This document shows, in pieces, positions 2,849-28,747 of a stretch of DNA of 32,504 bases (position 1 is its first letter; every line of letters begins with the position of its first letter). A model generated the notes under the pieces. The model saw only the letters and a list, made by a program, of their open reading frames with translations, did no database searches and was not told where the DNA came from. Origin of the DNA: Catajapyx aquilonaris. Its lineage: Eukaryota. The DNA lies in NCBI GenBank assembly GCA_000934665.2, contig JYFJ02006846.1, positions 1 to 32,504 of the forward strand, written 5' to 3'. Made by a program: the position numbers and the translations under genes.

Positions 2849-3110
2849 AAAAAAGAGAGACCAACAAAAAGAAGAAGAAAAAAAGCAGCAGCACTATTCA
2901 TGGCCTCGGCCATGGACGCCATTAGTCTCATTCCTACTCAATTAGAGTAATGAGGGCCAATAAAGCAATTTTAGCACCGCAACTGTCCATTTACTGTATG
3001 TTGACTTTATAGATTATTATTTTTTTGTAGCACTTATGAAAGCATTGGGCGTGACAATTTTTCGTGTCGCTTCGTTTGCTTTTTATATGGATTTTTTTTT
3101 AAAGTCAGTC

Positions 3111-5514: not shown

Positions 5515-5928
5515 ATGATCAAGCTGGTACGTACATGGACGCACTATCTAATTACCATTTTGTACCCATTTTGGGTACATTTTGTGTTAACTGCAATTAT
5601 TGGGACATAGGTGCTGGTCGTGTTGGCTGGAGTGTTGGTCTGTGCCCATGCTGGTGGGTACGCCCAGTACGCCCATGGGTTCGCCATACCTGGACCGTAC
5701 GGAGCAGCTAAGGTGAACCACAAGGGAGACAACTTCGGGTACGCGTACGGAGTGGACCAGGTACACAAGGGAGGAAGCAGCTACATACACCAGACAGGCA
5801 ACTTCCATCATGGATACGGACATCATGGACACGGCGGGTTCGGATATGGAGGACATGGCGGGTACGGCGGATATGGTGGACACGGCGGGTTCGGCTACGG
5901 TGGACATGGATTCGGATACGGAAAGTGA
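5515..5928 (+). CDS. Secreted Gly/Tyr/His-rich cuticle-type protein (~109 aa)
   Basis: Exons 5515-5526 (MIKL|gtacgt) and 5611-5928. Signal peptide VLVVLAGVLVCAHA, GGHGG(F/Y)G(Y) repeats and AATAAA at 6013-6018. Confidence 0.85.
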
Positions 5929-6719: not shown

Positions 6720-9700
6720 ATGAGCGAGAAAAAGTTTTCCGGGAGCGCCGCGTCCGTAAGTATTACCCGGAAATGACTTGAACACTTGTTCTGCCAATTA
6801 CCAATTTATTGTAGAACAATTATTGGGCCTCCTGCTCAAAACCATCTCTCTAAACGACATGGATTGTTTTCCCAGGTGGTGGACTTGAAGGCTGAGTTGT
6901 ACCGCAAGCAGCGAGAGTACGAGAGGGGTAAGCCAGACTCTGGAGGGCCCAAATGGCAGCCCAAGAAGGTGCCACAAATTTGGGGAAAGCCAAACGCAAT
7001 TGTCAAGCCCAAGGCGACAGGCGACAAGGCAGCAAAAGGTGCCGCTCAGCCTGAACCCGTGGAAGAATCAGAGCTGCTTCAAAAGTCCAGGTGAAAACGG
7101 ATTGACAATAGTATTTACTAGTCTCAAGAACAACTGAGCGAGGGATTTGAGTTAGCATGAATGTGTATGAAGCACTTGAAACGTATCAGTAAATATTGTC
7201 TTTCATTATTTCAGATCTGCGTTAGAAGCCAAAGCAAAGCTGTATGCGAAGCTTTCTAAGGATGCCTCTGTGTTGATAGATGATGATGAAAAACGGGAGA
7301 GCATCTTGGTTGATTTCGTGCAGAAAGCCAGAGACTCACCTGAATCTGTTGTGGAAGTTCCGGAAGAAGACGTAGAGGAGGAAGAGCCAGATATCCCTAT
7401 TCCTGCTCCATCCGGGCCAGATGAGGAATGGTAAGAATGCCTGATGAATTACAATTGTGAATTGAAGAGGCGGATTCCAAAGTCCCCTAAGTCCATTTTT
7501 GTTGTTTTGATCTATTTGTTGGCATCAATAACATGGGCTTATACGGGATTTGAGAAAACTCTCCGATTTCTGCGCTTGGAGTTGGGAACATTTTGTGTGT
7601 TCTGACCTCGGGAGAAGGTGGGGAGCACCATAAGCTACCAATAGACGTAATCAGCTCATTTTTCATGAAAATGGACTTTGGGGACTTTGGAATCCCATAT
7701 TTCTCACATGTTGTACAGCATTTAGTAACGAGCTTCTGCCAAATGTCAGATATTGGGACAGGCTGGTTTCCCCCTCCTGGCGCATGGATTCACATGCTAC
7801 TTTTCCTTCCCGAATCCCATGTTTGCGGTGAGCCTTTCAGGCTTTTGACAAATCGGCAGCAGACAAAGCGTTTTTACCTTTGGGTTTACAGAGATTAAGA
7901 ATGTTTTGAATGAGAATTGATTGCCCAATCATATCATTTGGCGAAATGTTTTCTTTTGTGATGTAAAGGCAGGAAGCATATCTTGCAAATTAATCCATTA
8001 GCACATGGGACAGTCACCAAATTAAATCCAGCCAGCAATCAATGATGGATATATTATTAACAGGAAATAGTGGCACGAACGGACTTTGTCTGAACAGTAC
8101 AAAAGTTGCCAAGCCCAGTTGCTATGTAATTTAGTGGGCAGGCCGAGATATGTTTGCATGAGTGCAGATTCATATAGGAATGTTATGTAATTGGGTTAGA
8201 TTTAAACCCATATTTATGAGTCATTTTAACTAATACAGCAATTAAATGTGATAGTGCACACTTGATTGATATTTCCACGTCATCTGAGATGTTTATTTGA
8301 TCAACAGGGTTGAGTACACAGACTCATTGGGTCGCACTCGCAAGTGTCTGCGCAAGGATCTTGCATCGTTCCAAGCGCAGGATGCGGAGTACTCTGGAGC
8401 CAGCCGCACCAGCCTGTTGGACTCAAACAAGTGGAAGCCAGAGGACTTGGACCAGGAGGAGAAGAGGCAGGAGCTACACAAGAAGTGGGACAAGGAGGAG
8501 GAGGAGGCCAACGAGAAGGGAACTGTCCACTACCAGGACGTGCTCTTTGACGGTAAGTGCATCTTAATTCGTCGAAATGAGGAGCTTAGTTGCTATTTGA
8601 ATAAAACCCCTTTTGGCATGAGGAAGATCTTGTTTATATCAATCGAGTCCAGCAAATATTATTTTATGACGCATGCAATGTGAATTGATTTCAGTTAAGT
8701 CTATGTACTGTAGGTGAACTGTGTTAATAAATTTTTTTTTTCATCAGTGTTCTTCATATATTTCAGGTGTAAGTTAAAATCATTAAATACATTTTTTTGG
8801 CAACTACGCTTCTCAATATATCGTAATTTTTCAATGTGCACAAAATGTTGCCATCATGTACATGTGCTCAGTTTACAGTGCTGTTATTGTTGCAATTGCT
8901 ACCCCAACTGCTACCAGTGCAACAGCGAAGGTAGACCTCAGCATGGTTCCGTCATTCAAGTTGCACAAGTCGTTGTCACACATGCAGACATACAGGCCAT
9001 TTTTTGTCTCGCAAGGGAGTGATGCAGTTGTCGCTAAATCGACGCAAGTGCGTGCAACCCAGTTCACTGAAATTGAGAAATGTAATTGGTCTCATTCTGC
9101 TCAGAGAAGGCAACAAAGCTGTTAGTGTCAAAAATATGTGGCACAATACAAACTTACTTGTCTGGTACACAATGCACGCTGCTCGTCCAACCTGGTAAGG
9201 ACATTGAATCTGAAACCCAGTGTCTTTGGGATCAAAATTTGCGCATGGATGTAAAGAGTAGTCGATGAAGGTTTGGCTTATGTTGCCACGAAGATCATTC
9301 GCTTTGATCCTGCTGCTTTCGTCACCCACTGGGTCAGGTGTGCATACATAGCAATTCAAGCTGTGACCTAAAAGTGAAGTTTACTGTAAAGTGGCTGACG
9401 GACTAGACAAAGGCAATTGTAGCTGCGTCACGACTGCAGCCTTTAAGCAATCATTTGCCAATGAAGTAACTCATATCGGAGGAAAATGTCTGTGATTTTG
9501 AGACAAAACATTGCAGTATCCTCACTTTGGTCACTAATTGTCATTTTTGGAATAAAGCGTACACTTCAAGTGCTTTCTTGAAACAGTGTGCCTTTAGAGA
9601 TTTCTAATGCCTAATTTTGCGGGAATAGCTTACAGATTTCAATCTTAAACTTACGATCTGGATAACAAACCTGTGCCCAACAAGAAGGTGGTAATGACTA

Positions 9701-12700
9701 AAGTTGCAAGGATGAACCTCATTGCTTCGGATGTACTGTGCAGGACGTGTAGTGGCCAAGCAGGTTGCTCCACATTTGGCGTTACCTAGTCATGGACGCA
9801 TCAAACACAACCTGCCTTTGCGTCATGCGACGGTATCCATGACAGTTACATATTGATTAAAGATGTATTCTCATGAGGAGGAGTCCTATTAAGAAACTAA
9901 CGTGCTGAAATCCTGATGTTAATTCGTGTATTATGGTGCACACCTTTTCACCATGGAGGTCATGGCCGGCACAAAACAATAACTTTGGGTCACCATGGAC
10001 GTTTTTTTTTATTCCCAAACTGAAGGGCATAGCAAAGTAGCGCATTATTAACAATGCAGAATAAATAAATATATATTATAGGAAATATTTGTTTTGATAT
10101 TACAATCAGTCCCAACTGGTCAAGTTGCTGGAGGTGATGCGATTGCAGGATGCGACTCTTATAATGCGGTCATGTCATTAGATTTTAGTCCTCATTAGGA
10201 GACATGAAATATGATGTGGTGTTTGTAAGCAAAAAATGCCAAAAAAGAGTAAGTTGCTTTGTTCAGGTAACCATTTCTTATCTCACTGACATGTGAGAGT
10301 GTCACTGACCGTGTCACCAGTTGGTAGCCTCGCCTGTTTACTGGCGACATGCCATGCATGTTGGTAGTAGATTTTCCTATCCTTTCAACACCGGAGATTT
10401 CACCACGGCCTGTCACATAAACTTAGGGCTTGCAACAGGTATTTTGATTTCATGTGGAACTCAATGTATATTGAAGATGAGGTGTAGTTGAAAAGAGGTG
10501 CCAACACTGTGTCTTCAATAGTGTTAGAATGTCAGATATGTGCAAAAATTTTATGTATTAAACACATTTCAATTAGAACCATAATTTAAAAATCTTACGC
10601 GTACGACTGAAAGTTACGGTGAGCATGAAGCACTCTGCATGATTAGGATAAGAGCTGTACATCATTGTTCATGGAAGTCCCCTAGTGTAATCAGGATTGG
10701 TTACCAACCGTGGCCAGCACCGAACGACTCATAGCCTCCGCAGCATCTCCGGCATGTACTACCGATGCACGAAGGGTATGATAAGCGAGGCAAGTAGGAG
10801 GTACATAGAGTGTTGCAGATGTGACCCTGCATCTTTGGTCTCCAGGTTCGGCTTGGTGGTGGTGCTGGTTGTGGTAGTCTCAGGGTTGTCTTTGGTCATG
10901 CGAGGGGTTGTGGTATGGTGCGGAGGTTGCCTCCAGTGTGGCACAAGCCCACTTCCACCTTCGACCTCATCCACGTCGTCCCCCTCATCCGTATCCTCAT
11001 CGACATCTTCACCATCATAATCCGGATTAGGCTGCTGTTGCCCCCTCTTGTCCACCCCAATTCTGTCCAGAACATCCTGATTCTTCTCATTCAGAAGCGA
11101 GAAGGAGTCGGACGGCTCAGGAGGAGGGGTCTCCTGGACCGTGTCCTGCTTGCCCAGGAAGGACATCTCTCCCTTGGGCTCCTGGTCCGACTCCTCCACA
11201 GTGGGCACATCTCGGTTGCAAAAGTCACTGTTGCAGAAGCAGTACAGCACTCCGTTGAAGGCCTTGCAGTCCTCCAGCAAGCGAGAGGTGCACGACCGTG
11301 TGACATTGTTGCCTAATGAGGGAACATTTTTAAAACAACTATAAATTTATTTGATATAACGAATTATTAATTCTCATTGAGTTATTGGATGAAATGAATT
11401 ATTTTTTGCTGAAACCCAACATCGAGGTCGCAACTCGCAACCGTACAAAATTAATGTTGAATTTTTTGGGGCATAATTCATTACTGTTGAATTTTTTGAG
11501 CATAATTAAAATATTCTGATCTGTTAATTGTACCTGAATTTGATGGTCATTCAAAGCTGAAGGTAAATTCTGAGAAAACCCACCCGTACACAAAGAGACT
11601 CACTGAAACTCTTTCCACATTACATGTCATATCTCAGTCTGCACTCAATGTACCACATAGCAGGGAGAGGTAAATTAATGTGACACTTGGGCTTGGTTAT
11701 GATTACACCATCATAAAATTATGGCGATTTTTGACCCCCTCAGAAACTACATGAAGCCTAAAAAGGAATCGCGTTTCAGGCTATTTTATGACCACCCTGT
11801 AAAGGGGACTATTCATATTGCAGACTAATAACGAGCACGTGAGAACTTAATGAGTTAGTCTGTAGTACACTAACGATTCTGGTCAAATTATTGCCTTCTG
11901 AATTTGAAAGGACTTGTTAATTATTGTCACTTCAGACTGTCCCACTTTGTCACTGTCTCAAATTTAATTACACTCTTTTCAGTGCAAGTCGTGTCCTAAT
12001 TTCCTCACTGTTCAGAGACATGGGGAGGGGAAAAAAAAAACCCTGCATCTTTTTGTTGTGTCCAATTGGCTTTAGGGCCGGCATATTGATCAGTTAGGAG
12101 GGGGTTCCAAGCAGCCTGGTAATTTATGGCCCCCCGGTTTATGATACGGAATCGGTCCTGCCTGGCCCATTAATTATGAGTCGAATTTTGGGCAACGCCA
12201 CTTGGGTGCTGGGTAGGGTTTCTCTCCCTCGAACACAGAAGTGACCGTTTGGCTTGTATTATGCCCGGCCACCATTTAATGATGGTATACCACAAATGGG
12301 CCTTTTCGTGGGGGACTTTACCCCCTAATTTCTTTTTTCTTTTTGTCGGAGGGAGACATATCGCATGACTAGAAGCAGGTAAATAAAGATTCGCCAAATT
12401 GGGGCTGAGCGCCTTTATTATTGTGTGTTTCCTGGGACCTTCTTAGTTGGAGGGACATTGGCCCCTGCCGAAATTAAGGTTGGAAGGAGGAGGAGGAGGA
12501 AAAATTCGGCAGTGATTGATGCCATGCGAGCTTTTGTCGCGTTATCATGTCACCTGCTTCTGTTTTGGTGGGTGATGAGGCACGCACTATAACAAGAGTG
12601 ACACGCATCTAGGGGATCTATATAGGGAACCGGCTTTTCAAGCATGAATTCCTGAGGATCACTACTTAATAAATTACTTACCGTTGACTCGTGTGAGGCA

Positions 12701-15700
12701 GGCGAATTTGGGTCCGGGACATTGATACTGGAACGATTGGGAGGCGTCGAATTGGCTGCAAGGTCTAGGAGGACGGTCCGGGAACATGTCGGACACTTCA
12801 GTGTCCCTGGTGTCTCCTGAGTGGCACACGTAGCAAGTCCGGCCGTCAACTGAAAGTACACTGCAATATTATAGAGAAAACCTACACGAGCACAGAGAGA
12901 ACCTCAGTCCACAAGAATTTGACAATCTGTCAATTTTGGTGGCAACGACCTGTGCATTGCATGCAATATGGATGCATGACGCATACTTGATTGACTGCTT
13001 CTGTATGAGCCGACTTGTGTACAGTGCATGTTATAACATCTTGCAATGCAGTATAAGGACAGATTAAGGGCTCATTGGGCGACCTTCCATTTTTTTTAAG
13101 TATATTTTTTTTTGCTATGGTCGGCAGCTGCTACTTGGCTAACCAACCTTTACACCCATTCCGATCATGCACATACACAAAAATAAACTCGAAATAAGCC
13201 CTTGTATTGGCCTCACCGAATATCTATAAAGACCACGTAGGTAATTTTGAGAAGGAAAATATCCACTGAAATGAACCGTCGATTATCATTTTGGCTGTAA
13301 TGCAGGGAATAATGCAAGAACGTAATAACTGTCTGGTCATGGAACCTATTGCATGATAGAGGTATTTATGGTTGCGATTTTTCAAAACGTTACCGGTGAT
13401 AACCATCTAGGTGAAAGCGGTGCTTATTAAATTGCAGGGTTTGAAAGTAGACCCTGTTCTTGTGGGTGGATTGCAACTATAGTATTTTTGCTGGTCGATG
13501 GCAGCTCCATGATTACGTTGATAATATTTAAATTTCGTGGTTTTATTAAACATTTTGTAACTAAAAAGTGAATGTATTCAAAATTGGACCAATCTGAATT
13601 TTGGTGTCGCCAATTTTTTACATGTTGCAAAATGTGGCTCCCGCGAGTTCATTAGCCATGCTTATATGAACACACCTGCTTTACTCATCAGTTTGCACAG
13701 AGAAGTCACTCATTGCAGACGTTTATAGTGTAATATGTTGGCCCAATACCAGAGGCAAACTTCCTGCAGTTTCTTTTTTTTTCGACTATAGGAATCTGCT
13801 CAACTATTTGCAACCAAGCACCCAAAGGATGCGGAATTCAAGAGACGTTGCCTCAACTTTACACGCGCCGTTTAATTCATGTGACGTCACATTTAATTTA
13901 CTCCTGGAGAAAGTCCACAAATAACATTGTTATAGGTTTTGATCAAGCCTTGATTGTTAAATTAAAAGGAGGTGCAGCAAGCAGGTTAGGTCTTCCTGGG
14001 AGCGGGTCAGGTGTGATTGGGTGCTGGTTCTGCATAATGAAAGGGAAGCGGAAATGCACCTTTTTTTATGTACATATATAAAACCAACCTGCGTAACTCA
14101 GGCGCGACCAAACACGAACTGGAAGGGGAGGCCCCTTTCAAAGGGTGCGACTCTTGCCCAGTCTATTGACAGCCTCATTAACGTTAAAAACCCACGTGCT
14201 TATGAAAGGGGAAACTTCGGCCTCAATAAGTTTTTTGGACATTTAAAACACACACACAAAAAAAAAATAATCGGAGCACTAGGGCGTGATGCAGGGAAAC
14301 TCACTTCATTAGCTCCCAAAAAAATCACACCCTGTAAATTATAGTAGCTATTATCGGTTCAATTGTGATTTTAAAATAGGCACGAGAAAAACCCTCGCAT
14401 TTTTTCTAGGCATGCGGTCTGCGGTGGATTCCCCTGCCCACCAGAGGCGCTGCCTATACACCCACTGCGCATGCGCTAATAGGAACCGGTCGCTTGCGGC
14501 GAACCATTACAGATGACTGCCAAACACCATTATGAATAGGATTTTAATATTTATTTATTTTTTGGCAAAAATTTTAGCTATTGGTTGAACTTTTAATATT
14601 CAGGGGAAAAAAATAGCAGTAAGAGGAACGCAATTTTGTCGCGCGTGCTCTGAATGCAAAATTCATAGCTTTATTATAATTTTATGGGTTTGTTCGGAAA
14701 TAACTGTGTGTGTGGGGGGGGGGGAGCTGATCCCTCCTCCCCCAAAAAATAGGTTACCGTTCCGCGGGGTTGAATATNGGGGGGGGGGGGGAGCTGATCC
14801 CTCCTCCCCCAAAAAATAGGTTACCGTTCCGCGGGGTTGAATATTTTAACAAAAATCCAGCGGATATTGCCAAAAAAAAAAAAGAAAAAATCGGGTGTGC
14901 GTAACTGTGGTGCCTTTCATTTCACACTGGTTTTGTGCTGGACTGTCAGTGGGTGTTGCCCATTCCTCTTTTCACCCTGGCGATTGTCGGATCCGACAAG
15001 CGTGAATATCTTTGCCATCAGAGGTGTCTCCGACAATCAGACACGTATGTTGTTGGGGTGGGGTTGCGTCATGTTATTCAAGGACTCCTTTTTTTTCCCA
15101 CGGCCGCCTTATCTCAAGCTAATATAAGATGTCAACGGTTTTAAAAGCTCGCGTACTTTTTTTTTCTGTTGCTTCATGTCTGATTGGAGCAAAGCAGGTG
15201 GAGATATAGGGTGGGAGGGAATGGAAATTCCTCAAGGTTTTCTCACTTGCTGACCTGGCTGGACAGGTAACACCTTTTTAATTATGCAGGTGTTTCTGAG
15301 AAAAATGCGGATCTAGGCTTCGGAAAAATGGCGTCCATATTTTTAAAAAAATAATCGTAACAATGGTTCGCGTGCTTTTGCTCTGATTGTTGATGGCGTG
15401 TGGGGTGTACACCCCCCCGGAAATTTTAATCGACGGATGTACTTGAGAGCAAACATGCCCACTCATCATATAATCATAATTTTTTTTTCATACCATTTCA
15501 CACACGTTCAGCAGCCTTGACCCTGCCCAGTTTGAGATATGTCCACTTTGCAGCATTTGGCCGTTAGTGTCAAAACGTCCACAAGCTTAATTTTCATGAT
15601 CGTATGTATCCGGCAATGTACTGAGATGGAGTCTTACGTAATGGTTTTTGTCAGTTTGGCGTCGCCGTCAATTTTTTTTTTTAAAGGCAGAGAGAGAGAG

Positions 15701-18700
15701 AGAGAGTGGTGCGTCTCAAAATAGTTGCATATTTACAAATGGGCAGAGTGTATTGGAGTGAGCATCTGATAGCAACCTTTTAGAGCGTTTGAATTGGTGC
15801 CAGGTCGTAGCCTGCGGTGTGCATTAAAAAAAAAAAAAACCAAAAAATTATAACCTTTTAAAAAGATTCTAGGTTCGTACGGAATGTTCGTGTAGGTGAA
15901 GAATGTTGGTGGGTTTCAAGCATGGTCGCATCTTGCGGAGAAGACATGCCAGAAAAAGAGCGTCGTTATATTTTTATAATACTGTCCGAAGTTCAGAGTC
16001 TAACAAGATATGTGCATATATCTGCCATATACTATGAAGATAAGGGTCATAAGCCCTTCTTTTATTGGCCCCTCGATAACGTGTTACCGAATACGTAAAC
16101 ATGCTTGTGGATTATTTACTCGAAATTTCAGCTTCAGGAAATTTCGTAAGGCCAAAATAACCGTAAGGTGTGCTACCCTTTTTTTACTACATTTTTTGCG
16201 GATGTGTACCGCAATTTTTTGGGATATTTTTATCTAAAATAAAAGGTGTTCACCGGCCCGTAGTGTCTCACGTAACTAGTTAATTTGCATCCATGAAATA
16301 ATAAACCGCTGTGTGTATAGAAACGAGCTTTGCATATCATTATACAAGACAAGGGGGGGTTGCTCGAGTTAGCCTGATTTAGTGATGGCAATAAAAATGA
16401 TTCCCCTATGCACCGTTTTTCGCTTGTTGATAAGCAGGTTGGATCTTAAGAAGTAGCCACGCCCTGGTTGGAAGAAAAGAGACTTTTTTTCCAGTCAGTT
16501 TTCAGGATTTTCAAGTTGCCAGCTGCTTAGGATTCGCGTGAATGAATGGGTGTGCTAAGTTGGCTTGGCTGTAATCACTATTCTTTTCCAAGTCGTGATT
16601 CCCGTGATCACGTTATGGGCAACCCCAAAAAGGCTGGCCTTCGCTTTAGTGTAAATTAAGGGCCCGGCAATTTAATACGTTAGGATGCTTCAGGCACATC
16701 CTTCACCTATATGTGCTCTAATTGAAATGAGGTTATCAGTCTATTTTCTCCGCTGTACGATTCGGGTATCCTTGAAGGCTTTTGTTGTGGTCTCGTGCTG
16801 TAATAAAATGTGTGTGTGTAGTATAAAAGGCAAAGAGTCGACAAGCCCTTTTTTTTCTCTCTGCTGCTAAACACACTCACACACTGATGAAGACGTACCA
16901 TACGTTGCTCTCGTTGACTGACTGCAAATTGCTCGGAATTAAGCGGTGTAATTTCTGAGTGTCTCATTAAGGCGTCAGTTCGCGCAAATAAAAAATGGCG
17001 AACCTTTTTTCAAGGTTTTTCTTCGAGGGCAAAAAGGTACGCTCTGCAGGCGGTTACGTTACAAGTAAAATGTGAATATATACATTTTAGGCTCTTACAA
17101 CAATAATTTTAATTAGATCAACGCGTTTTTTTTTTGTTGCGTTGAGTTGGACTGTAAAAAAAAATTAAAGGCATGTGCAGCCTTACTAATTATTTCCTTG
17201 GCTGTTTAGAAAGTTTCGAGAAAAATGTTAATTGTTAGTTTACGCCGGGATAATGATATGTCTAGGTGTCCGTCTTGTATTTTAAATCACCGCCTTGAAG
17301 GAAGTGTACAAGGAAGTGGAAAACTGAAACGTGAAGTTATACAGTGTGTCTTTTTTGGAAGGGAGGTTTTACGACTGGTTTTTATGAAGCCAATCGTTTA
17401 AACATGTGCATTGTAAATCTCCGGAACTGATAATTTCGAGGAACATCTCCAACAATATGGTGTGGGTAAAACGGTGATGTATTACTTTTTATCCAGGTCA
17501 TGTTCCTTATACCAACTGATAGATCTTGATTATTTAGTGCGGTGTTAATTGGTGCTAATTTAATGGCGTCTGTAGAACTTGGGATAGATCATCTGTTGAA
17601 AAAGGCTGGAATAACCAGTTGTAACTTCTAAGAATGTGTTGCAGGATTGGTTTCGATTCATGTCGCAATTATCTGAAGTTCTTAAGTAATGTTAGATGAA
17701 AATGCGAAACTCAGTTTTCCGTACTTGGAATTCCGATATGATAAAATGTAGACTTTTTCGGACTTCAAATATTGGCACAGGAGGAATTATCAGCGTTTTA
17801 ATAATTTCCATTTCCCGCTAATATTGATATTAAAACTATACCGATATTTCCAATAAATACGAGCACCCTCAAATGTTTTTATGCGGATCCCGATAACAGA
17901 GTGCACTTGTTCATTTCGCCCTTTGGACACTGATAAAATAGTTACTGGCGCCAGTAAAAAAATAAACCTTCTCAGGGCCCGAGTAGAGAGGTTTTGAAGG
18001 CACATATTATTATTTTTGTGGAGGTTCGTATCCAGAGAAATAGGACGCAACCACCTGTGGCCGAGTCCTATAGAAGAGGGTCGATAGCATGGTCCAATTA
18101 GTATCCGACCACCCACCAAAAAAAAGGAAAGGGGCAGGTGGTGCAGACCTTGGCCATTTCCTGGGAGATCATTCACCGGAGACTATTTCTGGTGGCCCGA
18201 TCTGGTGTGTGTCCCATGCTATACAAGTACTAAAAATTGAGTGACTCACCATAGTGGTAGAGACGTGCGATGATGAGCCCCGTGAGCCAGGGCAGCAGCT
18301 GGAGGTTCATGCCTCGGTGCGTCTCCCAGAAGCATCGCCACTCGACTCAACCGCGATTAAAAGAGGCCGCCACTCCAAAGGCCTACCACCCTTTTTTTCT
18401 CTCTCTCTCTATGCCCTCCCCTTTTGCTGTGCACCCCTTTTGCAGCACGTCAGAACCGCCAATGCTTTTGGTTGGTCAGTTGCGTGTCCGGCCTCTACAG
18501 ACACACACACACGATGCAATATGTATATCTTCGGGCTCTTGACTCTCTTGCCCGATCAAAACATGATTNGGGGAAGCTATCGGAGTAATTGGTTAGCTAT
18601 GGTGGCCAGTGAAAAGACAAAGATGCGTACACTCTGAATAAATCATTAGATAGTGGATGTCATTAACCTGTTCTTTATTAGCACAAATGGGTCATTCCAA

Positions 18701-21215
18701 GGTAATAACAGACGGGACAAAAAAATTGATTTTGTATTTTCAAATATAAATTCTGTAGGTATCAAATTGTGTTTTTTTAACGTTATGTAAGGGCAACATA
18801 GTGGTGGTGTTAAGATTTATGTAACTTCAGTAAGTCTGGTAACGGACAGTACATAAAAAGGACATGGTAATAACAAAACTCGGTTCTCTTGAACATTTCA
18901 TAAATAAATTGTTTAGTATCTTGTTATGTTTTGTATTAATTTTGTTGTAAATGTTGGTCGGTCCAATAAATTCCTAATAAGTATGTTGTAGAAGACTATC
19001 ATATCAACATGGTTCATTGCATAAGTTGTTGCATGTGATTAGTACAGTGATAATAATTAATCTAAGTAACAGACAAAGCATCAGTTACTGACCCGGCATT
19101 TTTGTCCTTGGGTAAAAAGACATAACGAGGATAGAATCAAAGGATCTAGTTTAGGAATGTCACTTTTTAGAACCCTCCCCAAATAAAAAAGTGTGCAGTT
19201 ATTCTTTTGCGGAAAGCTAATTAGTAGCCGTCAAGCCTTCTAGGCCAGTTAGTTGGTAGTAGCACTGCAAAAAAAAAAAGTTGTTTGGTTCAACTCGTTC
19301 GATGCTCATTATTTTACTTGCACATGTAATCAGTTAATTTGTCGTCGTTTTGCATGGGCACAAATCGTGCTTGACACTTTGGTACAGCTTTGGTAGGTGC
19401 ATAATGAGGAATAATAAAGAAGCTTCGATGCAATCAATCACACAATAGGATGATTGATTTCTGACTAGTTATTTTTGGTTTTTTCCTCGTAAAGGACATG
19501 GTAAATTCCCCCTGGAATTTTTTTTCCTTTTCGAGTACGACCTGCGTTATTTTTGCAGACTGCGACTGTAGTGAGACCTTCGCATCTTCGGATTGAATGG
19601 ATGAGTATGAATCCAACAAAGGAAAAGCGAATGCAGATATGTGCAGTGAGGGCGTGTTCCAAGCTAACAATGCATGTCCGTGTATCTTTCCTGCTGCGAG
19701 TACACGTTGGTTTTGTGCTCAAGGACTTCACTCGCCTTATTTCTGTCCCTATTCATCCAATGTCAAACTCAGCAGGCCAGTAGATTTGTTTAAAAAATAA
19801 AGTGACAGGTGATTCCTAGGGATTGTTCTTATGTGACATCTGACATGTACAGGTTGAGAACTGTGCGGGTGTCTGACTTGTGAATTTTTGACTTGTGATG
19901 TAGCTTATGTTACATTCTGTATCAGCTATTCTGTATGTTTTGTCGCACACTTTCACTTATAGCTGTGCATTTTTTTTTTTTTTACATTACAGAGGCACGG
20001 TCGCACGGTGTGGGCTACTTTGCCTTCTCGCGGGATGAGGAGATACGAAAGGAGCAGATGGTCACTCTTCAGGAGCAGAGGGAGAAGACAGCGGAGCAAC
20101 GGGAGAGGAATGAGCGACTGAAGTCAAAGAGGAAGGAGCAGCTTGATGCCAGGCTCAAGAAGGTGCGGGAGAGGAAGAGGCTGAAGATGGGGTTGCCACT
20201 GGAAGGTACGTTAGTTACGTCATGGAAGGGTAAGCCAAAGTAACCCAGGTTTGTATTTTGTTAGAGTAAAGAAGAAAATTGATTTTGATAGTTATCATTC
20301 AAGTGACGAAATGCATTTTCACATTCAAGTTTTACCCAAATTCGATGGCACGTATCGCGAATAATTTTTCATGTGTGAAAGTTGCTGTCATTATTTTATG
20401 ATTATTCAGTTTGGCTAAACATTAAGTAACCCACTGCCGTATATTTACAAGATTTGATCTTTCAGATTCACACGATTCTGATCCTGAGGAACCTGCGGAC
20501 GACATGGATGTGGCAGATATTGCCCTGCCAAGTGTTGCTCCACTAACCACTACCTTAGCTCCAAGTGTGCCAGCACCAGCAGTTTCCACCGCAGTGGCAC
20601 CGGAAACCAATGAAAAGGAGCAAACGTTGGATGCGAATGGAGATCCTGTTCGGTCATGGGATTTTGGGAAACCAGGAGTCTTTGCACCAAGAAAGAGTAA
20701 GAGCTGTTCTTATAGACATCGGATTGTTGGTCGTAAGAGTCACGAGTCCAGTGAATCAAATTTGTTGTGCACATAATTGGGAAGTACTTGGTTTCATAGT
20801 GGTTTTTGTTGGTTTATGTCTGATCATGATCATTTCCATTCCAGTCCTGGACCAGAGCGAGTGGGTGGCAAGGAAACGTGCAGAACGCAACACAGACTTT
20901 GCGCCTCCTTCTGCGTACTCCTCTACCTCCTCATGGAGTCGGCAGAAAGGCCAGAAGTCATCACGCCAGTGGAACAGGGACTCAACTGGTGGCTCTAGCA
21001 GCAGATACAAGGAAGATGACGGGCAACCTTCCCAAGCGAGGAGAGGGACGCAAGTCCCTCCTCCTGCCACTTACGACTACTATGGTCCTACGAGAGGCAA
21101 GGCACCTAGAGGCAGAGGGAACTTTCGTCACAAGCAGGAAATGGAGGATGCCATTAGCTCTGGGCTTGCATATCTCAGGCAGCAGCAGGAGAAGGAATCC
21201 GCAGGGAGCAAGTAG
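6720..21215 (+). CDS. CCDC174: Coiled-coil domain-containing protein 174 homologue (~508 aa)
   Basis: Exons 6720-6755, 6876-7090, 7215-7430, 8308-8552, 19993-20205, 20466-20696 and 20845-21215 total 1527 nt with consistent phases. Family motifs: [85 protein letters not shown] at 21257-21262. Confidence 0.92.
7472..7695. mobile_element. MITE-like element with 28-bp terminal inverted repeats in CCDC174 intron 3
   Basis: GGATTCCAAAGTCCCCTAAGTCCATTTT (7472-7499) matches the reverse complement of 7668-7695 at 27/28 positions. Non-coding interior; no clear TSD. Confidence 0.7.
8873..9722 (-). CDS. Ly6/uPAR three-finger (quiver-like) GPI-type protein, paralogue A (~151 aa), nested in CCDC174 intron 4
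   Basis: Exons 9722-9671, 9367-9158 and 9066-8873 (phase 1/1). Signal peptide MRFILATLVITTFLLGTGHS, 10 Cys from LNCYVC to VCMCDNDLCN, hydrophobic C-terminal tail. Confidence 0.85.
10759..18310 (-). CDS. Ly6/uPAR three-finger protein with acidic/Thr-rich stalk, paralogue B (~260 aa), nested in CCDC174 intron 4
   Basis: Exons 18310-18250 (MNLQLLPWLTGLIIARLYHY|gtgagt; assignment less certain), 12849-12682 (RTCYVC...PCSQF...QCP...ACL) and 11312-10759 (RSC...DC...YCFCNSDFCN, stalk, hydrophobic tail). All phase 1. Confidence 0.8.
14714..14844. repeat. Direct duplication (~64 bp) around a single N; probable assembly artefact
   Basis: poly-G + AGCTGATCCCTCCTCCCCCAAAAAATAGGTTACCGTTCCGCGGGGTTGAATAT occurs on both sides of N14778. 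Confidence 0.8.
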
Positions 21216-21509
21216 TTAGAGGTGGGCTGTGTTCGTGGTTTAAATGGAAAATGTGAAATAAAATATATTTAATCGTTTTTTTTTTCATGTTTTAACTTCT
21301 GCTAATGAATCCACCTCGTACTGTACATCATAATCTTAGTGCTTAGTAACAAATGGCACTGTGTACGCTTCTCGTTCAATGCAGTGGTGCAATACGACAC
21401 ACATTATTTCCATTTAAAAAGACAACATACTAGTTAATTAATGGACAGGCTCGAAATAAGGGACGAACCAGCATTCAAAATTAGAATTTAACTTCAATGT
21501 TAATTTGTT

Positions 21510-22158
21510 TTACAATGTGTAAATTGCAACCACCAGCATCACCAGTGTTGTAAGAAATGTGGGTTTCACTTTACAGTGCTTCGACTCCTTCGAGGCCTTT
21601 ATGCTTCGAGGCAAATTGCAGAGGTCTTGCGTGCAGTAGCAGCTGAGGACTTGGCCCAAAGAACCTAGCGTGTAGGTGGAGCATGAAGCTGCGTAGCTTG
21701 AGTTATCCTTACTTATTTTCTCTAGGGAATTGCAGTAGAGTGCTGACCATTCTTTGCCATCTGTCCGGAGAAAAAATGGTATGTAATTTTTATTTGCTAC
21801 ATCAAAAAACGTAAACTTACTGGTTGTTCCATACATGGCGACACACACTGGATGCCTGTAGATGCACTCGTATGTTTTCGGAAGGGCGCCATCAGAGTAG
21901 GTGAACGTGCAATTTTGAAGGAAGGAGTCCATTATTTTACCACTTTTTTCTGGTTCGCCACTTTTTCCTGGACTCAGGAATGGCTCTCGAAGCACCTCAT
22001 TTGGCACGCAGACATAACACCGTAGGGAAAGACCTAGAAAAGTGGTCAGATTTGCACTGCATCATTTTAGCGTAACTTTCCGCAGGGGTTGAACCCAATT
22101 TGAACTCACTTGTTTGTAACAGTAATAGGAACACTAGTGTAGCTGCGGATGCGAACAT
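21510..22158 (-). CDS. Ly6/uPAR three-finger protein, paralogue C (~170 aa)
   Basis: Exons 22158-22110 (MFASAATLVFLLLLQT), 22033-21821 (LRCYVC...) and 21760-21510 (...SCYCTQDLCN plus hydrophobic tail). Confidence 0.85.
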
Positions 22159-22627
22159 GGTGCAGAAGCCCATACAGGAGAACTTTGCATCTCTCAGTCT
22201 GAATGTCAACAAATTGATAGTCATGTTTCCATGAAAATTTCTGGCGGTTGCTCAGTAACTGCGGACAGGTGTTTTTTCCTATTTCGGCAGTGCCACGGAT
22301 GTAATGAAATTGTTTGCATTTTATTATTATCGCTAGTGTTATGTGCATGGCCGCAGTGCTATGTAAATGGAAGATGCATGACCTCAGATATACTTACTGG
22401 GTTTTATTTTGCTGCCATGCAAATGTTAACCTAACAACAACACTGGCATAAATGTGCACATGCGAGTTGAACAATAAGATGAGTTCCAGTGTGCGATGAA
22501 AACAATACAACCAACGAAGCATGCCACATGCGATCTGTGGTGGTTATTTAGAGCTGCAGGTGTGACACGATTAACCACTGCGAATGTGCAGCCTTTCTAT
22601 GAGCAGCAAACAGAAATAATTTTCGTG

Positions 22628-23939
22628 ATGCGTAGGATCAGCGTGAGAGCCTTAGCATTTTTACTAATTGCAACCGTTTGCATCGCTTCATACTTTGTGT
22701 ACATTGGCAAGTGTTTTAAGTATAAGTATTGTATGTCATTGTGCTTAATGTATAATTTTTTTTTGAACAGGATTACCTGAGTTGCCATGTCCTGAAATAA
22801 CACGCAATGCTGAATCACATGATGCAATATCCGCATTTAAATGCGACAGTTCACTGCAGCATGACAAGGATTTTTCATGGCTCATCACAAGGTTTGAGCA
22901 TTTTTCTAAGAAATTAATGATTGTCGTAACATATCGTGTATGTTTCAGAAATGTGGTGCACTATATACTTCCCGACGAGGACACCACTATTTTGGAACCA
23001 AGCTCCGTTTGTGGGACAGACAGCGTGTATCTCCTGGTGATTGTTCAAAGTGCGCCGTCTCATTCAAGGCAAAGAGATGCGATCAGACGGACTTGGGGAT
23101 CGGAACTGATGAGTATGAGAAGTGACGTTCGCATACTGTTCTTGCTCGGACTTGTTAATGACACCAGCTTGCAGGTATAGCCTTCTTGGACAGTGGTCAT
23201 TGCATGTGTTTGACACTCTCATTTAGTCTCAGGTGTCCGCTGAGATGGCCCAACATTGCGACATAGTTCAAGTCCAGTTGTGCGATGCGTATCAAAACCT
23301 GACGCTGAAGACTGTGCACATGCTGAAGTGGAGTCAGAAGCGATGTTCACAGGCTCGGTTCATCATGAAAGCTGATGATGATGTGTTCATCTCGCCAGTC
23401 AATCTCCTCCGCATCCTCGAGAACTCCAGTGTAAGCATGCTTGTTGCATACTCAAGCCAACATCCTATTCCGACTAATTCCAGGGTGATCTGATTGTTGG
23501 GCACGTACGCAAGGACTGGTCGCCGATCAGAAACCGCAGATTAAAGTGGTACATACCAGTCTCCCTGTACTCATCGGACCACCTTCCGCCGTTTGTGAAC
23601 GGAGGATCATACCTCTTCTCAGGATCACTTTTGCCTCAGCTCTACAAAGGATCTCTGGAGACACCGTTTGTCAACTGGGAGGACCTTTTTCTGACGGGTC
23701 TGGTGGCCGGAACACGATTGGGGTTGAACCTGACCCATAACCGTGGGTTTCACTTCGTCAAGCCAATGCACGAGTGTTCATACAAAGACTCTGTTCAGGT
23801 GCACGGATTGAAGCCTGAGGAATTGATGTCCGTGTGGGAAAAAGTGCTGGCTCTGAATACGAACGAGACGTATTACCACAGTTTGTGCGACAGTTGGTGG
23901 GTCAAAATGCTGGTTAATATATACCGAGATGGAGTGTGA
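22628..23939 (+). CDS. GT31 family beta-1,3-galactosyltransferase/brainiac-like glycosyltransferase (~361 aa)
   Basis: Exons 22628-22706, 22771-22891, 22949-23174, 23227(or 23233)-23430 and 23484-23939. N-terminal type II TM anchor. Motifs RDAIRRTWG, ILFLLG, DAYQNLTLKT, KADDDVF, KWYIP, GGSY, EDLFLTG. Confidence 0.92.
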
Positions 23940-23987
23940 GGTTACGATAACAGACACTTTGCAATGTAATAATATATTGTTTTAATT

Positions 23988-24607
23988 TTAAGAACAAAAG
24001 TGTATTAAAATAAGGGCAATTAACGCAATGGTAAGACTACATGTCGCTTTGTCCTTCTGACTTTCACTGCTGGTGTTACGTGTAAAAGGCTTGTTGCAAT
24101 CGTCATCGGTGCAAGAGCAGCTGTTGACTGTGCCCAGTGACACAAAGGTGATGTTGTGACACCCCATATCCTCCTTTGGTGACATCCTCTTGCAGAAGAG
24201 TGCTTTCCAACCACCTGTCAACGACATTGAACAGTTATTCATACGCAAATATTCAAAGAGTTCAAAACTTACTTTCATGGCGCATGGTGATGCACGCACT
24301 TTCTTCGAAATAGGGACAGTTGTATTGTCTCGGATTCTCATCCGTCTTGGCCCCTGTGAACCTGCATCCCTTTATGTTGGCTTCGAACAAGTCATGCGAT
24401 TGCTCATCGGCATACTTTGATTTGATGACTTCGCCTGCAAGTCCTTCAGGTATGCATATATAGCACTGAAGACACTCACCTATATTAAAAAATCACTGTG
24501 TGCTAGAAAATACTGAAGTGTGATTTATACTGCTAGGTGCACTCACCTGCTTCAAAAGACAAGGTCACAATGGTCAGAAGATAGGTCAGTGACATGGCTG
24601 CACTCAT
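23988..24607 (-). CDS. Ly6/uPAR three-finger protein, paralogue D (~164 aa)
   Basis: Exons 24607-24547, 24479-24273 (LQCYIC...GCRF...NCP...ACI) and 24214-23988 (FC...GC...SCSCTDDDCN plus hydrophobic tail). Confidence 0.85.
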
Positions 24608-24712
24608 TTTGTTGGCGGTTTCCATGCAAACATGCATAATAATTGAGGGTGAATTCCTGTGAACTCCGGAATGTTCGTACCGCAGAAGAATAACGACGCT
24701 TTATTCACACTT

Positions 24713-25330
24713 TTAGTCACACAACCAGCCGGTGACTTCCATTGTTAAAATGACAAGCACTAGAGTCGTCACCAAATCGCAGGTCATACGAGAGTCTCCA
24801 GCGCCTGGAAGCACGTTGCAAAAATCCTCTTCGCACCTCGTTAACTGGATGCCTTCGTCTTCCCAGGTTTCTAAAACTGAACTGTTAGGCCAAATGTTTT
24901 TGGAGTACTCGTAGCAACCAAGTGCCGTGAAAGTTGCTGTAAAATAGTCACATCGCTTGTTTCAATATTTAGAGAGGGGATTTAATTGTAAGTACTTACG
25001 ATCCGTATAGATAACGCATGCTCCGTCTCCTTTGGAGAAAATACATTTTTTTTTAAACCTTTCGTCATCCTCTTTGAATTTAGCGCAGCAAGGAATGCTC
25101 TCCGTGTAGTACAGCGCCATGTCTTGTGACACTTGGACAGTGTCATTGTGAAACTTTCCTTTCATACAATAGTAGCACTGCAGTAAGTTTGCACCTGCAA
25201 ATTAGCCGAAAGCTCTTCTTCCATTTGTTTGAAAGAGGTCAAAGTGCTGTTTGTTTTACAATGAGTGAGGTAACTTACCTGGTTGCAATTGAACGAGGGC
25301 CAAAATTATGAAGAGAGATATCCATGTCAT
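24713..25330 (-). CDS. Ly6/uPAR three-finger protein, paralogue E (~156 aa), lacking Cys7/Cys8
   Basis: Exons 25330-25279 (MTWISLFIILALVQLQP), 25194-25000 (LQCYYC...PCCAKF...KC...ACV) and 24936-24713 (LGC...RCEEDFCN plus tail). AATAAA on the minus strand at 24705-24700. Confidence 0.83.
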
Positions 25331-25454
25331 GACAGTGGCAGAATTTTATCTGTAAAGCTACAAACTTTATTGTTTAACAAACTCATCAGGTTACCACGGA
25401 ACCGACATAATATGTAATAATAAGCGCTTCGTACACTTTTATTGAGCATTATTA

Positions 25455-26138
25455 TCATGAAAAGTTTAAAGCAATGGCAATAATGGATACAAAAGCGGCA
25501 AAGGCTGAAGGCACGTTCAGTCCTGAAGAGTTGCAAAAATCTTTCTTGCACCTGCAGATGTACGCTCCTGCTTCGTACCTGCAGGACATATGACTGGTCC
25601 GCTCGTAGTACACTGCGCAACTTCGTGTGGTCACCGTCTCTGCCGATACACAAGTCATACAGTATCCATACTTTATCCATATAGTGAAAGTGGCTTACGT
25701 GACATGAAGGAGAAGCAGACTTGCGTGCCAATCCCTGGGTGATTAGGACACTCGTACTGGAAGTTTGGATCATGAGGGTCAAACCTGCTACAAGGGTACA
25801 TGTCCTGGTGGTCACCCGAGTCCCACGGGGTCATCCCATCCACGCTGCTCACATTGACCAGGTGATGCCCTGGGGTCACATCCGCACTGCTGACATTGAC
25901 CTGGTGACGACCTGGGGTCAGGTCGTCCACTCCGGGTATGTCAGGTCTGCATCTGTAGCACTTCAGACTCTGCCCTGGGAATAATTACACTAATAAGCTA
26001 ATTTGTTTTGTCCATTATTTTTATTATTAATTACAGTATTAATTATTAATTATTTTTATATTTGCAGATATAACTTTTACACCAACCTTTTTCCAGTGTG
26101 ATCAAGGCTACCAGTAGAACATACAAGGGTGATCTCAT
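25455..26138 (-). CDS. Ly6/uPAR three-finger protein, paralogue F (~170 aa)
   Basis: Exons 26138-26087, 25974-25699 (LKCYRC...PCSRF...ECP...VCF) and 25639-25455 (RSC...SC...ICRCKKDFCN plus tail). Probable 5'UTR intron at 26198-26148. Confidence 0.85.
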
Positions 26139-26464
26139 GATGACTCCCTATTAAAATTATTAATTAATGTCAGCTCCTGACATAATTAGACTCCTTACCT
26201 GTTCACTCGCCTTTGACTGTTTCCGGACTACCTGTTTTGGTTTTATATCGCTGAGTTTTTAGCCCCTTTGCATGTCAACTAACGAGGCCATTAAATGACC
26301 ATTTATCTGCTGGTCACTGCCATTAGCTTGACCCATAATTACTTTGTTTTCATCCAAGTAAAGCACGTTGCGTAGAAGGGCGACTTGCGATGTCACTTGG
26401 TTGATCCCAACAACAACGACGCCAGTGCAGGACAAACCATTTTTTAATTATTAACACCTTCATA

Positions 26465-27226
26465 TTACAGTACCCAGGTGACCATAAGCCACATCACAAA
26501 GGTGTTTAAGATGACCATAGAAGAGCTGGATACATCATTGCCCGATCTGGTTTTTTTCCCCAGCAAATTTGTCTCGTCTTCAAAGACTTTGTCCAGATCC
26601 GTGCAATGAGACCCGTCGCACTTGCAGACCATCACGGCATCGGTATCTTCAAAATACTTGCAGAAAGGGTACGTCTTATCTGGAGGGCCGCTGGAGCAAA
26701 ACAGCTTCCATATATTAGGCCTACCTGTTGTTTTTTTTTAACACAATAAAAATAGGCATTTGAGATCATGATGCGGGTCAGGCCACAAAAGCAAAATGAG
26801 GGTTAATCATTATTGGAACCATTTGATTTGCTTCTCAGGTAAAAGTAATCTACTAACCTAATTTGTGTCTGGCGCACACAGGGATCCCAGCCTTGGGCTC
26901 CGGACATTTTCCAGCGTAACTCATCTTCTCATTTACAAACTTGCGGCAAGTCGGGTACTCGCTCATCATGGTGCCATTAGGCCGGGTCCCAACTACTTCT
27001 TCGACATGTGAGGCGCAAACGTAGCATTCCAGAGACTCAACTGCACATAATTTGTATTTATTTGATACCGGCCTAAAGTATATATTTGAAATGAACTAAT
27101 TGCTAATTAGAAGCAGCCGGAACATATGAATTATTATCTGTACACTGATGGTCACTAACCTGTTTCAGGGATGACAAGAATGGTCAAGGCAGAAGTTACT
27201 AACGAAATGTGGAGCAAAAATTGCAT
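26465..27226 (-). CDS. Ly6/uPAR three-finger protein, paralogue G (~169 aa)
   Basis: Exons 27226-27160, 27040-26858 (LECYVC...TCRKF...KCP...VCA) and 26724-26465 (FC...FC...VCKCDGSHCT plus hydrophobic tail). Confidence 0.83.
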
Positions 27227-27449: not shown

Positions 27450-28452
27450 TTATTTTTCTGTAATCTCTAGGTCAACCAGTTTCTCGTCTATAATCTCATC
27501 CGACATATACCTCCGGTGCACTTTCAATCTCGACTCTGCAACCTGGTCATCACTGTTGCGCAATTTTCTGGCATTGTTGACCCCCCCCACTGCACCTTTC
27601 GAGCTGAGGACACACATGTTTTCACCGTCTGCGACTAAGTTTACAAATTATACACAGATCATGCTGCTTTCTGACATATTCTTCTATTCTTCTTTATTAA
27701 CATAATGTAAGCTTAATTGATTTTTTTTTAAATCAGTGCCTGTGAATATTGACAGTGATGCTGTAATGTAGCCATGTTCTCCTTGAAGGCTAATGAGGCC
27801 TGTTGTCATATCAGGTGTAGAGTCGGATGCGTCTAAAGGTCACCAAATGAGCTTATTAGTGCATTACGCACATTTTAAAGTGCATTCAAATGCCATAATA
27901 ATAACTTTACGTACCTGACAAAAGCAGAAACCAGTTTCACCCATCTGTGCAAGATGCAAAAAGATTAAGGACCTTCTAATAAAATATATTGATTGCAATA
28001 TACCTGGATAAGACATAATGGTAGTGTGGGATCCAGATGAAACGATTCTGTGCTTTCGGCTTGGGAGCTGTGCCATTCACCATGCCGGGCATACTCTATT
28101 GATGTGATTAATAAAATGCTTTGGTAATATTGTTTTCCCAACCTCCAAACCAAAATGGCACAATTCTCCCATAGATTGGCTTCAAGCTTTCACTTACCTG
28201 AATCATATCCATGTCATCCTCATCTCCGTTTTCAAATCGAGGCATAGTGAACACCAGAGGTAGGGCTTGATAATAAATGTTGTATATGACAATGAATGCA
28301 CTGAGGATGAGAAGCGCAAATCCTTTCGTGTATGAAATTCCTATGGGACCTCCGCCTACAGTAGTAGCCTCCACTTGGTAAATTATCTGAGCCGCTTCAC
28401 ACTGCAGTATATTTAATACCAAAATCAAGACGAACCCAAATGAACGTGCCAT
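27450..28452 (-). CDS. Uncharacterised signal-peptide plus single-TM protein; 3' exon structure uncertain
   Basis: Exon 28452-28198 encodes MARSFGFVLILVLNILQCEA (signal), a TM segment FALLILSAFIVIYNIYY and an acidic patch, ending at a strong cag|gtaagt donor. Candidate downstream exons are 28095-28004, 27944-27915, one starting at 27832, and an open phase-1 exon at 27628-27450. Confidence 0.45.
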
Positions 28453-28747
28453 GATGTCCTTTGGAACCGCTCGACACAACTGAGCTTGAAACGGACATGG
28501 CTTTAATCGCAAGTGCAAACAGTAGAGTTCACATAACGGGTTGCTTCCTGCCATTTAAAAAAAAGGCCATAAAATTTGATGACATCTTCTCCATTTATTA
28601 GTCAATATGAATAAAGAACAATATGAGACTGCTGCAGGCATGAACCGCACTCCTGTATACATGAAAGGTCAGTGGACCTTGTGTTAATGTTTGTAATTAG
28701 GATTGCATGTCTGTTCGTATTGATGAAACTTTAAAAAATATTTCCAG

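What the first reader, a model, noticed from the sequence alone, without database searches (positions are those of the whole stretch)
8873..27226. Seven-member array of divergent three-finger (Ly6/uPAR) surface proteins threaded through two unrelated genes
Seen: seven minus-strand genes share one plan (signal exon / CYxC...CxxF...C...C exon / C...C...CxCxxxxCN-type exon with hydrophobic tail) but share little beyond the cysteines. Most are missed or fragmented in the ORF track. Two sit in a CCDC174 intron, one lies between CCDC174 and the GT31 gene, and four are in tandem. Known: arthropod Ly6 proteins include the channel modulator quiver/sleepless and the septate-junction factors boudin, crooked and coiled. 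Inference: a lineage-specific, rapidly diversifying receptor or modulator repertoire.
Basis: partly seen in the sequence, partly recalled or inferred. Interest (0 to 1): 0.8.

Follow-up and report, generated by a model that had tools for sequence, protein, structure and literature searches.

The report
Long-fingered Ly6 gene cluster in arthropod
Seven intact, related genes in an arthropod encode small ten-cysteine proteins of the Ly6 type with an unusually long first loop, likely anchored on the cell surface where they would bind other membrane proteins; local Ly6 expansions like this are a familiar pattern, so this is a new instance of an ordinary kind.

Summary
Confirmed. Seven minus-strand, three-exon genes with phase-1 introns, signal-like start, Ly6 cysteine pattern and hydrophobic tail. 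Two lie in an 11.4-kb CCDC174 intron; GT31 sits between members and hosts none. Spliced contigs of one public run show g6 intron 1, g7 intron 2 and the CCDC174 intron. The seven share more than cysteines and fall on one side of a supported branch against canonical Ly6 genes. Their shared trait is a long Cys2-Cys3 loop: 21-52 residues versus 6-9. No relatives outside the contig were found (own-genome searches), whereas canonical Ly6 halves from this genome found 601. Family assignment rests on gene structure, cysteine spacing, language-model features and sub-threshold Pfam QVR scores; both structure predictions failed, so the fold is untested. 'Rapidly diversifying' is not shown: no DNA similarity remains, no orthologues for dN/dS. 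Tandem lineage-specific Ly6 clusters and opposite-strand nesting are well documented (PMC4476152, PMC6600238, PMC3814207). The scan noted another divergent Ly6 cluster elsewhere in this genome.

The parts
26465..27226 (-). g1, Ly6-type gene; exons 27226-27160, 27040-26858, 26724-26465; 169 aa; Cys2-Cys3 loop 22; most divergent member, ends C-T not C-N
25455..26138 (-). g2; exons 26138-26087, 25974-25699, 25639-25455; 170 aa; Cys2-Cys3 loop 52, lengthened by a 42-bp tandem duplication (25837-25920) whose two copies each carry an N-glycosylation sequon
24713..25330 (-). g3; exons 25330-25279, 25194-25000, 24936-24713; 156 aa; lacks Cys7 and Cys8 (one whole predicted disulfide), one extra Cys beside Cys3
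23988..24607 (-). g4; exons 24607-24547, 24479-24273, 24214-23988; 164 aa; closest to g5; overlapped on the other strand by the GT31 contig
22627..24354 (+). GT31 galactosyltransferase gene (neighbour between g5 and g4); four joints seen in the run (three with GT..AG ends); its contig reaches 24354, across g4 exon 3, intron 2 and part of exon 2; start coordinate approximate
21510..22158 (-). g5; exons 22158-22110, 22033-21821, 21760-21510; 170 aa; its 60-nt second intron is in frame and stop-free
10759..18310 (-). g6, nested in the CCDC174 intron; exons 18310-18250, 12849-12682, 11312-10759; 260 aa; about 130-residue acidic, Ser/Thr/Pro-rich stalk between domain and hydrophobic tail; 5.4-kb intron 1 seen spliced
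8873..9722 (-). g7, nested in the CCDC174 intron; exons 9722-9671 (predicted), 9367-9158, 9066-8873; 151 aa; intron 2 seen spliced, intron 1 retained in the one contig that covers it (9648-9158 unbroken)
8553..19991 (+). CCDC174 intron (11,439 nt) that holds g6 and g7; one contig joins 8552 to 19992
19992..21672 (+). CCDC174 last coding exons (stop 21213-21215) and a spliced 3' untranslated exon from about 21575 that lies antisense in g5 exon 3 (98 nt on that side of the joint)

Best explanation
These are seven intact paralogous Ly6/uPAR-type genes that likely arose by local tandem duplication from one ancestor with a lengthened first loop, and they are predicted to encode GPI-anchored three-finger proteins that would bind the outer parts of other membrane proteins in particular cell types. 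Shown: three-exon phase-1 structure, open frames, cysteine pattern, hydrophobic ends, mutual homology, nesting, splicing of two members. Inferred: signal cleavage and GPI anchoring (hydropathy only); disulfides 1-5, 2-3, 4-6, 7-8, 9-10 and the three-finger fold (from the family; models failed); that the variable loop between Cys2 and Cys3 extends finger 1 and gives each copy a different binding surface; that they act as non-essential, tissue-restricted adaptors or modulators like insect Ly6 paralogues. The nesting in CCDC174 and the GT31 gene in between are read as packing in a compact genome, not as a functional link.
For: Gene structure and intron position after Cys5 match the LU consensus in PMC6600238 (section 2 read) and the canonical Ly6 genes of this genome. 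g3 has lost exactly Cys7 and Cys8, a disulfide pair in that consensus. ESM Atlas for the g5 read-through: top hits 0.92 to QVR clusters, 10 of 10 best family hits in one family or clan. A profile of 10 canonical domains from this genome scores 5 of 7 above cysteine-kept shuffles (g5 0/300, g7 0/300, g6 3/300, g2 4/300, g1 6/300). Leave-one-out profiles recover all 7 exon-2 halves directly behind the training set (E 4e-12 to 5e-4 among 1093 stretches). Trees put the seven on one side of a branch, 97/96 against 15 rows and 96/99 against 13 rows with the long loop removed. Six of seven own-genome exon searches gave no match outside the contig at E<=0.8; g5 gave four weak ones (E 0.16-2.5), none showing a Ly6 exon in the frame scan. 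Tandem Ly6 clusters with shared exon structure and divergent sequences are described in insects (PMC4476152 passages).
Against: No window stretch reaches the Pfam QVR cut-off (best 17.1 bits vs 27.3) while canonical halves do (36.1, 33.2; one at 19.6 does not). g3 and g4 do not beat shuffles on the canonical profile (292/300 and 140/300). Profile-profile match is weak (probability 31%, E 5e-4, C-terminal half only). Atlas for the g7 exon scored 0.88 and 0.84, leads only. Exon-3 leave-one-out fails for g1 (rank 66) and is weak for g3, g4. Tree branches are very long, the comparison set was gathered with the QVR profile and leaves out other divergent Ly6 genes, and there is no root. No evidence on binding partners or tissues.
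Confidence: 0.7

Rival explanations
1. The cluster is old and conserved within a poorly sampled arthropod group: each gene has an orthologue in relatives whose proteins are not in the databases, and the divergence reflects age, not fast change. The proteins would still be Ly6-type.
For: No DNA similarity among paralogues at E<0.01 (the two hits are shared flanks); 20-39% protein identity; this organism's own proteins did not appear in the searches, so its lineage is thinly covered.
Against: The crooked orthologue of this genome keeps 79% identity to an insect crooked, while no window gene finds any relative: orthologues across distant arthropods are unlikely, though not within a narrower group.
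Confidence: 0.35
2. The genes are a recognition repertoire (gamete, microbe or self/non-self) whose long first finger is under positive selection.
For: Cysteine frame and hydrophobic ends kept while loop 1 varies from 21 to 52 residues, once by tandem duplication; a GPI-anchored LU protein mediates fertilisation in fish (PMC6600238 passage).
Against: No young duplicates or DNA similarity; only two base differences between run and assembly inside Ly6 exons, one silent (g7) and one replacement (g4), too few for any test.
Confidence: 0.15
3. Part of the array is decaying or rarely expressed (g1, g3, perhaps g7), held silent in part by overlapping transcription from the neighbours.
For: g3 lacks the 7-8 pair, whose loss in single-domain proteins is reported to destabilise them (PMC6600238 passage); g1 lacks the Asn after Cys10; the one g7 contig retains intron 1 and would not give the protein; CCDC174 and GT31 contigs run antisense over g5 and g4 exons.
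Against: All seven frames, splice sites and hydrophobic ends are intact despite full loss of DNA similarity, which points to purifying selection; each of g1-g4 has a polyadenylation-like hexamer within 16 nt of its stop.
Confidence: 0.12
4. The proteins are not three-finger domains but another small disulfide-rich fold that resembles the pattern.
For: Both models failed (pLDDT 37.7 and 36.5); Pfam below cut-off; no solved relative by sequence.
Against: Exon structure, intron position, ten-cysteine spacing, C-x-C-x4-C-N end, paired loss of Cys7/Cys8 and Atlas features all agree with LU domains.
Confidence: 0.05

Closest known systems
Arthropod single-domain Ly6/uPAR proteins, Pfam QVR PF17064 (crooked, quiver/sleepless, boudin, coiled, crimpled; functions from PMC6600238 passages)
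   Same: Three exons with phase-1 introns, intron after Cys5, ten-cysteine pattern, signal-like start and hydrophobic tail; Atlas features point to QVR clusters.
   Different: Cys2-Cys3 spacing 21-52 against 6-9 in 12 other Ly6 domains modelled from this genome (L009 counted from its second adjacent Cys) and 7 in 60 of 60 crooked-family database domains; below the Pfam cut-off; none is the orthologue of crooked, which lies on contig C1134 (79% identity). A wider survey of loop lengths in the QVR family was not made.
Drosophila Ly6 Clusters III and V (PMC4476152; abstract, introduction, passages and section 16 read)
   Same: Contiguous tandem paralogues with one exon-intron plan, highly divergent sequences, lineage-specific origin.
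   Different: Different lineage and founder; here two members are nested in a housekeeping-gene intron and an unrelated gene interrupts the array; no expression data.
Opposite-strand nested genes of Drosophila (PMC3814207; abstract and opening read)
   Same: Intron-containing genes nested on the strand opposite to a conserved host; the paper reports 9.5% of genes in nested structures, with faster-evolving nested genes.
   Different: Here two paralogues share one intron, and 3' untranslated parts of two neighbours overlap coding exons of g4 and g5.

Membership tests
Ly6/uPAR (LU) single-domain proteins | Three exons (signal, two domain exons), phase-1 introns, intron at the tip of loop 2 | tested here: met
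   7 of 7; g7 exon 1 predicted only; criterion from PMC6600238 section 2
Ly6/uPAR (LU) single-domain proteins | Ten cysteines in the LU spacing | tested here: met
   6 of 7 have all ten; g3 lacks 7 and 8, a rare variant named in PMC6600238
Ly6/uPAR (LU) single-domain proteins | Asn after the tenth cysteine | tested here: met
   6 of 7; g1 has Thr
Ly6/uPAR (LU) single-domain proteins | Domain length 60-90 residues | tested here: not met
   86-126 residues; only g6 (86) is inside the range, owing to the long Cys2-Cys3 loop. Canonical domains of this genome are also about 88-102, so the range is not strict for arthropods.
Ly6/uPAR (LU) single-domain proteins | Three-finger fold with disulfides 1-5, 2-3, 4-6, 7-8, 9-10 | tested here: inconclusive
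   Two AlphaFold2 runs on the intron-containing g5 read-through gave pLDDT 37.7 and 36.5; Foldseek on the first found nothing at E<=0.001; spliced products were not folded
Ly6/uPAR (LU) single-domain proteins | Signal peptide and GPI anchor | tested here: inconclusive
   Hydropathy only: hydrophobic start and 17-24-residue hydrophobic tail with at most one Lys/Arg in 7 of 7; no dedicated predictor available
Pfam QVR PF17064 | Score above the curated cut-off of 27.3 bits | tested here: not met
   Best 17.1 bits for the g5 read-through, 14.2 for g2 exon 3, no hit for other exons; only exons and one read-through were scanned, not spliced proteins
crooked orthologue group | High identity to crooked proteins | tested here: not met
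   Best E 0.03 among 60 crooked-family domains, against 79% identity for locus L008

The most novel reading that the evidence does not exclude
A long-finger Ly6 subfamily that works as a germline-encoded recognition repertoire: a fixed three-finger base carries a freely lengthening first finger under positive selection, and the copies are switched on or off by overlapping antisense transcription from CCDC174 and GT31.
Probability: 0.07. Interest if true: 0.62.

Novelty: new member of a known kind. Interest (0 to 1): 0.27.

Why it matters
It adds an unannotated, apparently lineage-restricted Ly6 subfamily with a consistent long first loop, one member missing the 7-8 disulfide and one on an acidic stalk, useful for asking how far the three-finger scaffold can be stretched. 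The pattern itself (tandem divergent Ly6 clusters, nesting on the opposite strand) is already documented, so a specialist would find it expected. It would matter more if loop 1 proved to be positively selected or the antisense overlaps proved regulatory.

Tried and rejected
Run search: one holder, none listed as RNA; its contigs nonetheless skip introns. No contig covered g1-g3 or g7 exon 1, and no g4/g5 joint was listed: no evidence either way. Structure: single-sequence and 10-row models of the g5 read-through failed; Foldseek on the first was uninformative; alignments A1, A4 and A6 were out of cysteine register and were not folded or searched. Solved-structure sequence searches: nothing and one chance-level hit, E 0.041. 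The search of 1.84 billion representatives with g6 exon 2 gave two repetitive proteins, rejected as chance. Word-index searches with the g5 read-through (lengths 100-321) and five exon-2 rows (161-2000) gave none; both are weak negatives. Founder: g6 resembles locus L018 (z 5.9), but g5 scores as high with L023 (6.0) and L015 (5.1), 70 comparisons, so no founder is named. Loci L014 and L022 were left out of profiles and trees because their automatic splice models were unreliable. A nicotinic-receptor link: no such gene was seen in the window frames scanned. A secreted venom role: rejected because all seven carry a hydrophobic tail. Literature searches listed no paper on this subfamily; the library lacks most subscription papers and supplements were not read.

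Full report
Setting. The window is the whole contig G000:C4305 of a 285.6-Mb animal assembly. An arthropod is indicated by a crooked orthologue 79% identical to an insect protein named crok and a chemosensory-receptor gene in the window. No relatives' genomes are held.

Observation. Seven minus-strand genes were modelled: g1 27226-26465, g2 26138-25455, g3 25330-24713, g4 24607-23988, g5 22158-21510, g6 18310-10759, g7 9722-8873. Each has three exons, both introns in phase 1, the second a few codons after the fifth cysteine, and an open frame of 151-260 residues with a hydrophobic start and a 17-24-residue hydrophobic tail. An exon-2 cysteine pattern occurs 7 times against 0.005 on average in 200 shuffles, C-x-C-x4-C-N 5 times against 0.065; the first pattern was drawn from the genes themselves. 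No eighth member was found among 1093 open stretches. Pfam identifies the plus-strand neighbours as CCDC174 (PF25449, PF13300) and a GT31 galactosyltransferase (PF01762). g6 and g7 lie in a CCDC174 intron, 8553-19991; g5 lies between CCDC174 and GT31; g4-g1 follow in tandem. GT31 hosts no gene.

Transcripts. One public run holds the stretch; its type is not on record, but its contigs skip introns. They join g6 exons 1-2 (5400 nt skipped), g7 exons 2-3 (91 nt), the CCDC174 exons on either side of the large intron, and GT31 exons. The one g7 contig is unbroken from 9648 to 9158, so it retains predicted intron 1, whose donor is weak; a second in-frame donor/acceptor pair exists. A CCDC174 contig splices from just after its stop into g5 exon 3 on the opposite strand (98 nt on that side), and the GT31 contig runs to 24354 over g4 without skipping g4's intron. 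Contigs do not give strand directly; the GT..AG ends do for the spliced ones. This is one run, possibly related to the assembly's own project.

Relationships. The seven share more than cysteines: with cysteines fixed, 7 of 21 pairs score z 8-15 and g1 at most 3.7; identity is 20-39%. Leave-one-out profiles recover 7 of 7 exon-2 halves clearly, and 4 of 7 exon-3 halves (g2, g5, g6, g7; g3 and g4 weak, g1 missed). The genome has other Ly6 genes: 20 QVR matches at E<=1, 7 over the cut-off, none on this contig, several clustered on C1134. Against 10 of these plus crooked proteins, the seven form one side of a branch (97/96, 22 rows, bootstrap not fully settled; 96/99, 20 rows, long loop removed). 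Branches are long, the tree is unrooted, two loci were dropped for unreliable splice models, and the comparison set was gathered by the QVR profile. No DNA similarity remains between paralogues. The shared trait is a Cys2-Cys3 distance of 21-52 residues against 6-9 in the other 12 domains modelled and 7 in 60 of 60 crooked-family domains. g2's loop grew by a 42-bp duplication; g3 lacks Cys7 and Cys8; g6 has an acidic stalk of about 130 residues (32 Asp/Glu in 131).

Relatives elsewhere. None were found with the g5 read-through (929 candidates, lengths 100-321), g6 exon 2 (1.84 billion representatives, two repetitive chance hits) or a five-row exon-2 profile (513 candidates, lengths 161-2000). 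As a control, canonical halves from this genome found 601 proteins at E<=0.01, of which 120 were listed and all 60 complete domains were crooked-family. Own-genome searches with seven stretches found only window paralogues and weak matches at E>=0.16. These are negatives with short queries; the band of 51-160 residues was not searched with the family profile, and the organism's own proteins are not in the collection.

Family. The LU definition was read in PMC6600238 (section 2 and passages): three exons, phase-1 introns, intron at the tip of loop 2, ten cysteines paired 1-5, 2-3, 4-6, 7-8, 9-10, Asn after the last. The genes meet the exon and cysteine criteria (g3 and g1 deviate as noted), and g3's loss is of exactly one pair. 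The Atlas places the g5 read-through among QVR clusters at 0.92; g7 exon 2 gave only leads. Pfam QVR stays under the cut-off. A profile of 10 canonical domains separates 5 of 7 from shuffles, not g3 or g4; the profile-profile match is weak. The fold was not established: only the intron-containing g5 frame could be modelled, and both runs failed. So 'Ly6-type' is well supported; 'member of Pfam QVR by score' is not met; 'three-finger fold' is inferred.

How it likely works. By family knowledge (PMC6600238 passages: loops and concave sheet bind proteins; Drosophila members traffic septate-junction components or modulate Shaker and nicotinic receptors), each product would be secreted into the ER, GPI-anchored and bind another membrane protein's outer domain. 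Because the 2-3 bond lies in loop 1, the variable stretch would extend finger 1 and differ between copies; g6 would be held further from the membrane. PMC4476152 (section 16) proposes that such paralogues are non-essential, tissue-restricted and kept after tandem duplication. I put this reading at about 0.7 for identity and origin; the partner is unknown and the adaptor role is inference. Rivals: an old cluster conserved in an unsampled group (0.35, compatible with Ly6 identity), a positively selected recognition set (0.15), partial decay (0.12), another fold (0.05).

Novelty. Tandem, divergent, lineage-specific Ly6 clusters are described in insects (PMC4476152: abstract, introduction, passages, section 16) and vertebrates (PMC6600238). 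Nesting is common: 9.5% of Drosophila genes, with fewer on the same strand (PMC3814207, abstract and opening). Five literature searches listed nothing on this subfamily; supplements were not read. Earlier scan notes report another divergent Ly6 cluster and other nested arrangements in this genome (not checked here). Labels other than crooked for the canonical loci are recalled and were not used as evidence.

Noticed in passing
window 21219-21672 (+) and 23936-24354 (+): Contigs of CCDC174 (via a spliced 3' untranslated exon) and GT31 extend antisense over coding exons of g5 and g4.
   Followed up: partly
window 9368-9670 (-): g7 intron 1 is retained in the only contig covering it; two alternative in-frame donor/acceptor pairs exist.
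   Followed up: partly
window 22158 (-) to about 22627 (+): g5 and GT31 start head-to-head about 470 nt apart; a shared promoter is possible.
   Followed up: no
window 2964-4309 (+): Chemosensory (gustatory-type) receptor frames: 3719-4309 matches 7tm_7 (E 3.4e-8); the upstream 239-aa hydrophobic frame has no Pfam hit and may be the same gene broken by a frame change or short intron.
   Followed up: no
window 441-743, 2274-2850, 5611-5925 (+): Several small His/Gly-rich, cuticle-protein-like frames with short tandem repeats; no Pfam family.
   Followed up: no
window 29426-30304 (-): PTPLA/HACD exons (PF04387) bound the cluster on the right.
   Followed up: no
window 28111-28554 (-): 148-aa open frame with a signal-like stretch and a second hydrophobic stretch, no Pfam family.
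   Followed up: no
window 14714-14844 and about 18570: A perfect 67-nt duplication around an N, and a second N, both in g6 intron 1: likely assembly joins.
   Followed up: no
window 4501-4924: Degenerate 6/19/54-nt tandem repeat array.
   Followed up: no
G000:C1134:18099-36303 (L008, L012, L013, L017, L018): A second Ly6 cluster with the crooked orthologue and at least three more QVR genes; C1033 holds two adjacent exon-2 copies (L023, L026).
   Followed up: partly
L009 (G000:C3155:9644-9928): A QVR gene whose whole domain is in one exon, unlike the other modelled members.
   Followed up: no
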